A stretch of DNA of 64,000 bases from Chrysomallon squamiferum. Taxonomy: Eukaryota > Animalia > Mollusca. The DNA is taken from assembly GCA_012295275.1 (NCBI GenBank), contig CM022672.1, positions 35,216,001-35,280,000 of the forward strand, read 5' to 3'. The position numbers and the translations under genes are program-made. Under the pieces are notes generated by a model. The model was not told the DNA's origin and did no database searches. It saw nothing but the letters and a program-made list of their open reading frames with translations. The first letter of the stretch is position 1, and every line of letters begins with the position of its first letter. Shown here one piece after another: positions 3,175-3,484 of this stretch.

Positions 3175-3484
3175 TTACTTTTGAATTTTCTCGTATGGAG
3201 ATCCCTGTCCAACAACATCAATATCTAGTTTATCATAATCGTATATTTCTTGAGTGTTGAGTTCTTCTTGATCAGAAGTGTTTACATAACTTGTCTCCGC
3301 ATCACCTGATGAAATTGTTTGAGTGTCATTGTGATTTGGTGTTGTGACGATATTGACGTCTTCATCAAATACTTCATACACTGATCACGGAGTAGCTGCT
3401 GTCCTTGTATGACTGTTGCTGCTTTTCGCAAATGATACTGAATGTTCAGTAGAGGATGGTCGTTTTCGTATGATCAGAGCCATT
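3175..3484 (-). CDS. Receptor exon 16: cytoplasmic tail with in-frame TGA at 3385-3387
   Basis: After acceptor ttttcag: (R)MALIIRKRPSSTEHSVSFAKSSNSHTRTAATP*SVYEVFDED...SYVNT...YDYDKLDIDVVGQGSPYEKIQK*. Confidence 0.8.

What the first reader, a model, noticed from the sequence alone, without database searches (positions are those of the whole stretch)
3175..3484. In-frame TGA separates an ITAM-like signalling tail from an EGF/lectin receptor
Seen: the last exon reads ...RTAATP-TGA-SVYEVF... and stays open in the same frame for 69 more codons. That extension holds YEVF, YVN (Grb2-type pYxN), SPYEKI (ITIM consensus) and YDKL-x10-YEKI (ITAM consensus YxxL/I-x6-12-YxxL/I). Every cytoplasmic tyrosine lies after the stop, and the other 15 exons are intact. 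Known: Draper/MEGF10-type receptors signal through ITAM-like motifs. Inference: either a nonsense allele producing a non-signalling decoy receptor (a last-exon stop should escape NMD), or a switch via readthrough or A-to-I editing of UGA to UGG. The context UGA-UCAG is not the canonical UGA-CUAG readthrough motif.
Basis: partly seen in the sequence, partly recalled or inferred. Interest (0 to 1): 0.8.

Follow-up and report, generated by a model that had tools for sequence, protein, structure and literature searches.

The report
Snail receptor copy lost its tail
One copy of a multi-copy snail cell-surface receptor gene carries a real, transcribed stop codon where its sister copies read serine, so it is predicted to make a receptor without its tyrosine signalling tail, most likely an ordinary tolerated loss rather than a readthrough or editing switch.

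Summary
In detail: TGA at 3387-3385 (minus strand), then 69 open codons holding all five cytoplasmic tyrosines. It is no assembly error: spliced-library contigs from two samples of two studies carry it unchanged (X6, X9). It is not a conserved readthrough site: paralogous contigs read TCA (serine) there in 4 of 4 runs, and 4 of 5 homologous tails, including two Gigantopelta aegis proteins, have serine at that column and translate the tail. The 'extension' is the family's normal tail, cut off by one base change in one copy of a multi-copy F5/8-lectin + EGF-repeat family. No A-to-I change, readthrough context, stem-loop, SECIS or credible splice bypass was found. Best reading: a tolerated nonsense copy predicted to make a tail-less receptor. 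A selected decoy role stays open: the stop-bearing contig was the only family contig laid in one RNA library, and the ectodomain is intact. Fixed versus polymorphic could not be decided.

The parts
3385..3387 (-). In-frame TGA, codon 773 of the gene model; paralogous contigs read TCA (Ser)
   Evidence: place 3386; TGA present in RNA contigs X6 and X9 record 26
3175..3384 (-). Ancestral cytoplasmic tail, 69 codons plus TAA, now downstream of the TGA
   Evidence: homologous to translated tails P0004, P0006-P0009
3184..3237 (-). ITAM-like YDKL-x10-YEKI; its second half is also the ITIM-type SPYEKI (3201-3184)
   Evidence: Y83, L86, Y97, I100 of the query invariant in 6 of 6 aligned tails
3280..3288 (-). 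YVN (YxN motif)
   Evidence: YxN in 6 of 6 aligned tails
3367..3378 (-). YEVF, first tyrosine after the stop
   Evidence: YE invariant in 6 of 6 aligned tails
3388..3484 (-). Exon 16 before the stop: 32 residues, no tyrosine; the predicted remaining tail
3485..3955 (-). Last intron, 471 nt
   Evidence: joint 3484/3956 in X8; X6 loose end
3956..4064 (-). Exon 15 with the predicted transmembrane helix (about 4020-3964, Kyte-Doolittle 2.6 over 19 residues)
   Evidence: covered by RNA contigs X8, X9
5184..11785 (-). Eleven predicted EGF/DSL-like exons (exons 4-14), each with 8 cysteines
   Evidence: 4 of 11 scanned, all 4 hit Pfam DSL below its cut-off; splicing predicted, not read from RNA
12798..13819 (-). 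Exons 2-3: predicted F5/8 type C / galactose-binding-like domain
   Evidence: exon 2 hits PF22633 and PF00754 at E 6e-6 and 1e-5, just under the cut-offs; exon 3 no hit; exon 3 is 74-77% identical to G. aegis proteins bearing those Pfam labels
17834..17912 (-). Predicted exon 1 with start codon and signal-peptide-like stretch
   Evidence: predicted only
3046..3051 (-). Only AATAAA between 3500 and 2400 on the gene strand; candidate polyadenylation signal
   Evidence: use not shown

Best explanation
One copy of a multi-copy lectin-EGF receptor family has TGA where its paralogues have TCA, the spliced mRNA carries the stop, and translation is predicted to end there, giving a membrane receptor with a short tyrosine-free tail that is likely tolerated because intact sister copies remain. 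Shown: the stop, its presence in spliced RNA contigs of two samples, serine in paralogues and outgroup, the conserved tail in relatives. Inferred: that the change is derived (parsimony), that the ribosome stops, that the mRNA escapes nonsense-mediated decay because the stop is in the last exon (rule recalled), that the intact tail signals through Src/Syk-type kinases, and that the loss is near-neutral birth-and-death turnover.
For: Place 3386 reads the TCA letter in all depth of X8 (4.92/4.92), X2 (2637.7/2637.7, 14 contigs), X1 (490.5/490.5, 10 contigs) and 17.8/22.2 of X9. 4 of 5 homologous tails have Ser in the stop's column, 1 has Pro, none a stop. Single majority-type exon contigs are 6 to 35 times deeper than contigs matching the window exactly in 5 of 5 DNA-type runs compared (a rough sign of many copies, not a copy number). 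Behind the stop the window differs from the majority haplotype at 7 places, 5 replacement and 2 silent, pN/pS 0.72-0.91, as neutrality would give. The related MEGF/galactose-binding receptor cluster of Biomphalaria sudanica shows copy-number differences and domain loss between haplotypes (PMC12297450, section 8 read). Genes with nonsense alleles tend to have many paralogues, and a fly genotype carries about 35 (PMC5888714, first third read).
Against: The ectodomain shows no decay: 11 of 11 EGF exons keep 8 cysteines, all splice sites canonical. In library X6 the stop-bearing contig was the only one laid at 94% likeness or more (1 of 1), a hint that this copy is well expressed; contigs drop rarer variants, so this is weak. 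The stop is in two samples from two studies, so it is not a singleton. The pN/pS test has no power (omega 0.3 not excluded, P 0.18), the polarity of the 7 differences is unknown, none damages a conserved tyrosine motif, and one gives the window an extra tyrosine. No protein data at all.
Confidence: 0.62

Rival explanations
1. Selected decoy: the stop is kept because a tail-less receptor binds the same glycan ligands or dimerises with intact and phosphatase-bearing family members and damps their signal, a third class beside the tyrosine-tail and phosphatase forms.
For: Intact ectodomain and membrane helix; the cut removes all five tyrosines and nothing else; expressed in two samples and the only family contig laid in X6; the same ectodomain sits on phosphatase tails (P0001, P0002) and on the short tail (P0004) in G. 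aegis; stop codons have made new receptor classes in CEACAMs (PMC2832619, passages).
Against: A young nonsense change would leave the same intact ectodomain. No independent tail loss among the 5 homologous tails or in the contigs laid (no exonic indel rows). No frequency or selection data.
Confidence: 0.24
2. Programmed or tissue-specific readthrough (pseudo-pseudogene): ribosomes decode the UGA often enough to give full-length signalling receptor.
For: UGA is the leakiest stop, and U at +4 ranks second in some data sets (PMC4615788, passages); the frame stays open and the tyrosine motifs are intact; precedent in Drosophila sechellia Ir75a (as described in PMC7244557, passage). The site lies in a variable stretch, so another residue would probably be tolerated.
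Against: The stop is not shared by paralogues or outgroup; context UGA-UCAG is not UGA-C/CUAG; 3230-3390 folds no better than shuffles, z -0.21; no Rfam match in 2300-4100; basal readthrough is 0.01-0.1% in mammalian cells; post-stop pN/pS 0.72-0.91 gives no sign of constraint (low power).
Confidence: 0.07
3. A-to-I editing turns UGA into UGG.
For: UGA has an editable A; the lowest-energy fold puts it in a short helix.
Against: Both RNA contigs that carry this haplotype across the site show the unedited base; the fold is not significant; the best complementary stretch in the pre-mRNA (-27.0 kcal/mol) lies within the range of 8 control windows (-21.9 to -31.9). Contigs cannot show minor editing.
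Confidence: 0.02
4. Alternative splicing removes the stop in part of the mRNA.
For: One in-frame AG lies behind the stop (exon would start at 3289) and some in-frame GT..AG pairs span it; a paralogue-like X9 contig uses another acceptor 18 nt into the exon.
Against: The 3289 acceptor is AAG in a purine-rich context and the internal donors are poor; no joint across the stop in the RNA-type runs laid (X8, X9, X6).
Confidence: 0.03
5. Assembly or consensus error.
For: DNA runs X1 and X2 show only the TCA letter at 3386 although they hold the window's intron exactly.
Against: X6 (same sample as X2) and X9 (another sample, another study) hold the TGA in contigs with 0 differences from the window; the DNA contigs most likely dropped it as a rare branch among deeper paralogues.
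Confidence: 0.02

Closest known systems
Gigantopelta aegis 'MEGF10-like' proteins XP_041359117-9 (P0004, P0010, P0011) and XP_041357563 (P0006)
   Same: F5/8-type domain (P0004), the same 8-cysteine EGF repeats, one membrane helix, homologous tail with SVYE, YVN and YD(K/R)L-x10-Y(E/S)KI
   Different: They translate the tail, with Ser where the window has TGA; fewer EGF repeats; names are automatic annotations, no function tested
MEGF/galactose-binding-domain receptor phosphatases of Biomphalaria sudanica SudRes1 (PMC12297450; abstract, section 8 and passages read)
   Same: Clustered paralogues with galactose-binding + multiple-EGF ectodomain, haplotype differences in gene number and domain loss
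   Different: Intracellular tandem PTP domains, not a short tyrosine tail; 'ITAM' occurs 0 times in its main text; no tail-removing stop seen in the passages read; supplements not read
Human FCGR2C-Stop / FCGR2C-ORF (PMC11659932; passages read)
   Same: Recently duplicated immune receptor paralogue with a common nonsense allele built into the reference sequence
   Different: Its stop is in an extracellular exon and abolishes expression; here the stop is behind the membrane helix in the last exon and the mRNA persists
Drosophila Draper / CED-1 / MEGF10 (10.1101/198986; one passage read)
   Same: EGF-repeat ectodomain, one membrane pass, ITAM-like YxxI/L-x6-12-YxxI/L
   Different: Draper has an NPxY motif and 13 tail tyrosines; this tail has no NPxY and 5 tyrosines; its N-terminal domain scores as F5/8 type C, with no EMI hit (EMI as Draper's N-terminal domain is recalled)
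Pseudo-pseudogene Ir75a of Drosophila sechellia (seen only as described in PMC7244557, passage)
   Same: Receptor gene with a lineage-specific premature stop and an intact downstream frame
   Different: Readthrough was shown there, in neurons; nothing here shows readthrough

Membership tests
Programmed stop-codon readthrough gene | Stop codon conserved in relatives along with the downstream frame | tested here: not met
   Paralogous contigs read TCA; 0 of 5 homologous tails have a stop there
Programmed stop-codon readthrough gene | UGA-C / UGA-CUAG context or 3' stimulatory structure | tested here: not met
   UGA-UCAG; fold z -0.21; contexts from PMC4615788
Programmed stop-codon readthrough gene | Purifying selection on the post-stop frame of the stop-bearing copy | tested here: inconclusive
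   5 replacement, 2 silent differences; pN/pS 0.72-0.91; omega 0.3 not excluded
Programmed stop-codon readthrough gene | Translation past the stop | not testable with these tools
   needs ribosome profiling, mass spectrometry or a reporter
A-to-I recoded stop (UGA to UGG) | A>G at the stop in RNA | tested here: not met
   X6 and X9 contigs unedited; majority level only, minor editing invisible in contigs
A-to-I recoded stop (UGA to UGG) | Double-stranded editing substrate | tested here: not met
   no better than shuffles or control windows
Selenoprotein | SECIS element; Cys or Sec in homologues | tested here: not met
   0 Rfam matches in 2300-4100; homologues have Ser or Pro
Draper/CED-1/MEGF10 orthologues | NPxY motif in the tail | tested here: not met
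   absent in 6 of 6 tails
Draper/CED-1/MEGF10 orthologues | N-terminal EMI domain (recalled) | tested here: not met
   exon 2 hits F5/8 type C families only, exon 3 nothing
Draper/CED-1/MEGF10 orthologues | ITAM-like YxxI/L-x6-12-YxxI/L | tested here: met
   but downstream of the TGA in this copy
Gastropod galactose-binding-domain + MEGF receptor family | F5/8/GBD domain, EGF array, single membrane helix | tested here: met
   (hits just under Pfam cut-offs)
Gastropod galactose-binding-domain + MEGF receptor family | Intracellular PTP domains (RPTP subgroup) | tested here: not met
   no tblastn hit of P0001 beyond residue 430 anywhere in the window
Decoy receptor | Binds ligand at the surface and lowers signalling by intact receptors | not testable with these tools
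   no protein or binding data
Nonsense allele/paralogue in a multigene family | Single-base stop, sense codon in paralogues and outgroup, intact copies present | tested here: met

The most novel reading that the evidence does not exclude
The TGA is fixed in this species and works as a switch: by default the copy makes a tail-less decoy that shares its ligand-binding arm with activating-type and phosphatase-type family members, and tissue-specific readthrough restores the ITAM-like tail, making it a pseudo-pseudogene in a mollusc immune receptor cluster.
Probability: 0.06. Interest if true: 0.72.

Novelty: new member of a known kind. Interest (0 to 1): 0.22.

Why it matters
As it most likely is, it matters little: one more nonsense copy in a fast-turning receptor family, though a clean one (real, expressed, cut just ahead of every tyrosine). 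It adds a tail-less form to a snail receptor family that already pairs one ectodomain with tyrosine-motif or phosphatase tails, and whose relatives map to parasite resistance in Biomphalaria (PMC12297450). If the stop proved fixed and selected, it would be a natural test of decoy logic in invertebrate immunity; if read through, a rare pseudo-pseudogene outside insects.

Tried and rejected
No whole genome is held, so paralogues could not be counted or aligned directly. Tail search with the window's own last exon among longer proteins: 0 of 62 candidates scored. Scan of JGI metagenome contigs: 150 pattern matches, 0 relatives. No family member elsewhere in the window. X8 holds window-like contigs on both sides (3285-3382, 3401-3484) but none across the stop: no evidence either way. 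Absence of the TGA from DNA contigs X1 and X2 was not taken as absence of the allele, since X6 from the same sample as X2 has it. Selenocysteine, editing, splice bypass and assembly error considered and rejected as above. Earlier-finding look-ups by near place and by sequence returned nothing. Paper searches that showed no report of this gene, its stop, or stop readthrough in a mollusc receptor among the rows listed: (listings only; the library is incomplete and matching is loose). No structure or complex prediction was run: it would not bear on whether the stop is read.

Full report
Observation. On the minus strand the last exon (3484-3175) reads through ...RTAATP to a TGA at 3387-3385, then 69 open codons to TAA. 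My 16-exon model from 17912 to 3175 has AG/GT at every intron, and stops only at codons 773 and 843. It predicts a signal-like N-terminus, an F5/8 type C / galactose-binding-like domain (exon 2 hits PF22633 and PF00754 just under their cut-offs, exon 3 no hit), eleven 8-cysteine EGF/DSL-like exons (4 of 11 scanned), one membrane helix and the tail. Only the last intron is read from RNA; the other junctions are predicted. The 32 residues of exon 16 before the stop hold no tyrosine, the 69 after it hold five; YDKL-x10-YEKI fits the 6-12 ITAM spacing but not 6-8. An open run of 69 codons has P about 0.007 by chance here.

Is the stop real? Nine public runs hold the stretch; I laid eight. X6, listed as 'DNA?', gave one 756-nt contig identical to the window over 3170-3488 whose loose end equals exon 15 at 3960-3989, so it is a spliced transcript carrying the TGA. 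X9, an RNA run of another sample and study, has a 107-nt contig (3351-3457) identical to the window, with the TGA more than 30 nt from both ends. X6's sample may be the one the window was assembled from; X9's is separate, though the tool warns that studies may share a campaign. Against this, DNA runs X1 and X2 show only the other letter at 3386. As X2 and X6 are one sample, I infer that the DNA contigs dropped the TGA as a rare branch among deeper paralogues. X3, X4, X7 and X8 give no reading of this haplotype at the site. So the stop is real and expressed; fixed versus polymorphic is open.

What is the extension? At 3386 the other contigs read TCA, serine: all depth in X8, X2 and X1, and 17.8 of 22.2 in X9 (codon). 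Majority-type exon contigs are 6 to 35 times deeper than window-exact contigs in 5 of 5 DNA-type runs compared, which points to many near-identical copies; the tool states that depth is no copy number. Exon 3 finds Gigantopelta aegis proteins at 75-77% identity, so the source is likely a related vent snail (inferred). Two of them carry phosphatase domains (P0001, P0002), one a short tail (P0004). That tail aligns with the window's last exon across the stop (42% identity, E 1e-20). Two more searches gave five homologous tails in all; in the alignment 4 of 5 have Ser in the stop's column and 1 has Pro, and the YE, YxN, YxxL and SPYxKI positions are invariant. The 'extension' is therefore the family's normal tail, and its conservation says nothing for readthrough.

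Selection behind the stop. Seven differences from the majority haplotype lie in the post-stop frame (rows shown, where 40 rows were shown and 84 not; X9 record 23 and X7 record 20 each differ from the window by exactly 7 letters over this stretch). Five are replacements, two silent: pN/pS 0.72-0.91, compatible with neutrality (P 0.49-0.60) and also with omega 0.3 (P 0.18). None hits a conserved motif; one gives the window a tyrosine where the majority has histidine. No indel row falls in the exon. The test is too weak to decide.

Escape routes. Context UGA-UCAG is not the UGA-C/CUAG type; U at +4 ranks second in some studies, and basal readthrough is 0.01-0.1% in mammalian cells (PMC4615788, passages). 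The 161 nt from the stop onward fold no better than shuffles (z -0.21). No Rfam family, hence no SECIS match, in 2300-4100. The best pre-mRNA complement of the stop region is within the range of 8 control windows, and both contigs with this haplotype are unedited. One in-frame AG behind the stop and several internal GT..AG pairs exist, in poor contexts, and no joint crosses the stop.

How it most likely works. Shown: stop, spliced mRNA, serine in relatives. Inferred: a single C-to-G change on this copy's branch; termination there; escape from nonsense-mediated decay because no junction is predicted downstream (rule recalled; candidate AATAAA at 3051); a surface receptor with about 28 tyrosine-free cytoplasmic residues. 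The intact tail likely recruits Syk-type kinases, by analogy with Draper (10.1101/198986, one passage) and the oyster ITAM receptor CgIgR (PMC6994640, abstract); untested in this family. With many intact copies the loss is likely tolerated; nonsense alleles are common in genes with many paralogues (PMC5888714, first third). The best rival is a selected decoy: the ectodomain is undamaged and the stop-bearing contig was the only family contig laid in X6. A young neutral stop predicts the first fact too, and contigs hide rarer variants, so I put it at about one in four.

Known context. Biomphalaria sudanica has a cluster of galactose-binding + MEGF receptor phosphatases with haplotype differences in gene number and domains (PMC12297450; abstract, section 8, passages; supplements not read and could list tail-less members). 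FCGR2C-Stop (PMC11659932, passages) and stop-derived CEACAM classes (PMC2832619, passages) are vertebrate parallels; Ir75a is the readthrough precedent (via PMC7244557, passage). PMC5829715 was searched for this context and gave nothing. It is not a Draper orthologue by the features tested. Searches listed no paper on this gene or its stop (listings only).

Verdict. Real, expressed, derived nonsense change in one paralogue; new member of a known kind; interest 0.22.

Noticed in passing
window 9343-9996: A 72-bp tandem repeat (9.1 copies) duplicates the acceptor and first codons of exon 6. Eight upstream copies each offer an AG followed by a stop after 16 codons; only the last opens the full exon. 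Use of an upstream acceptor would give a short secreted form or a decayed mRNA, a second possible lesion in this copy.
   Followed up: partly
window 3466/3956: A paralogue-like RNA contig of X9 (15 differences over 3351-3466) splices exon 15 to an acceptor 18 nt further into the last exon, in frame.
   Followed up: no
window 3241-3243: The window has Tyr where the majority haplotype has His, two residues before the ITAM-like YDKL.
   Followed up: partly
window 2330-2955: 55-bp tandem repeat, 11.5 copies, directly behind the likely 3' end; the X6 contig would reach about 2930 if colinear (242 nt beyond 3170, not seen).
   Followed up: no
window 33822-34550, minus: 243-codon open frame with RNA-recognition-motif-like stretches, resembling the hnRNP R/A1CF/RBM47 group (label recalled; frame).
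   Followed up: no
window 58791-61062, minus: Open frames resembling a RING / coiled-coil / NHL-repeat (TRIM-NHL-like) gene, with a frame change near 59100-59170 (labels recalled; frames).
   Followed up: no
window 26635-27354: Minisatellite with open frames of 220-239 codons on both strands.
   Followed up: no
window 170-1023, plus: Short frames resembling decayed LTR-retrotransposon integrase/RT-RNase H pieces (label recalled; frames).
   Followed up: no
proteins P0001, P0002 versus P0004, P0006: In Gigantopelta aegis closely similar ectodomains sit on phosphatase tails or on the short tyrosine tail; the phosphatase forms also have juxtamembrane YVN and YCN motifs.
   Followed up: partly
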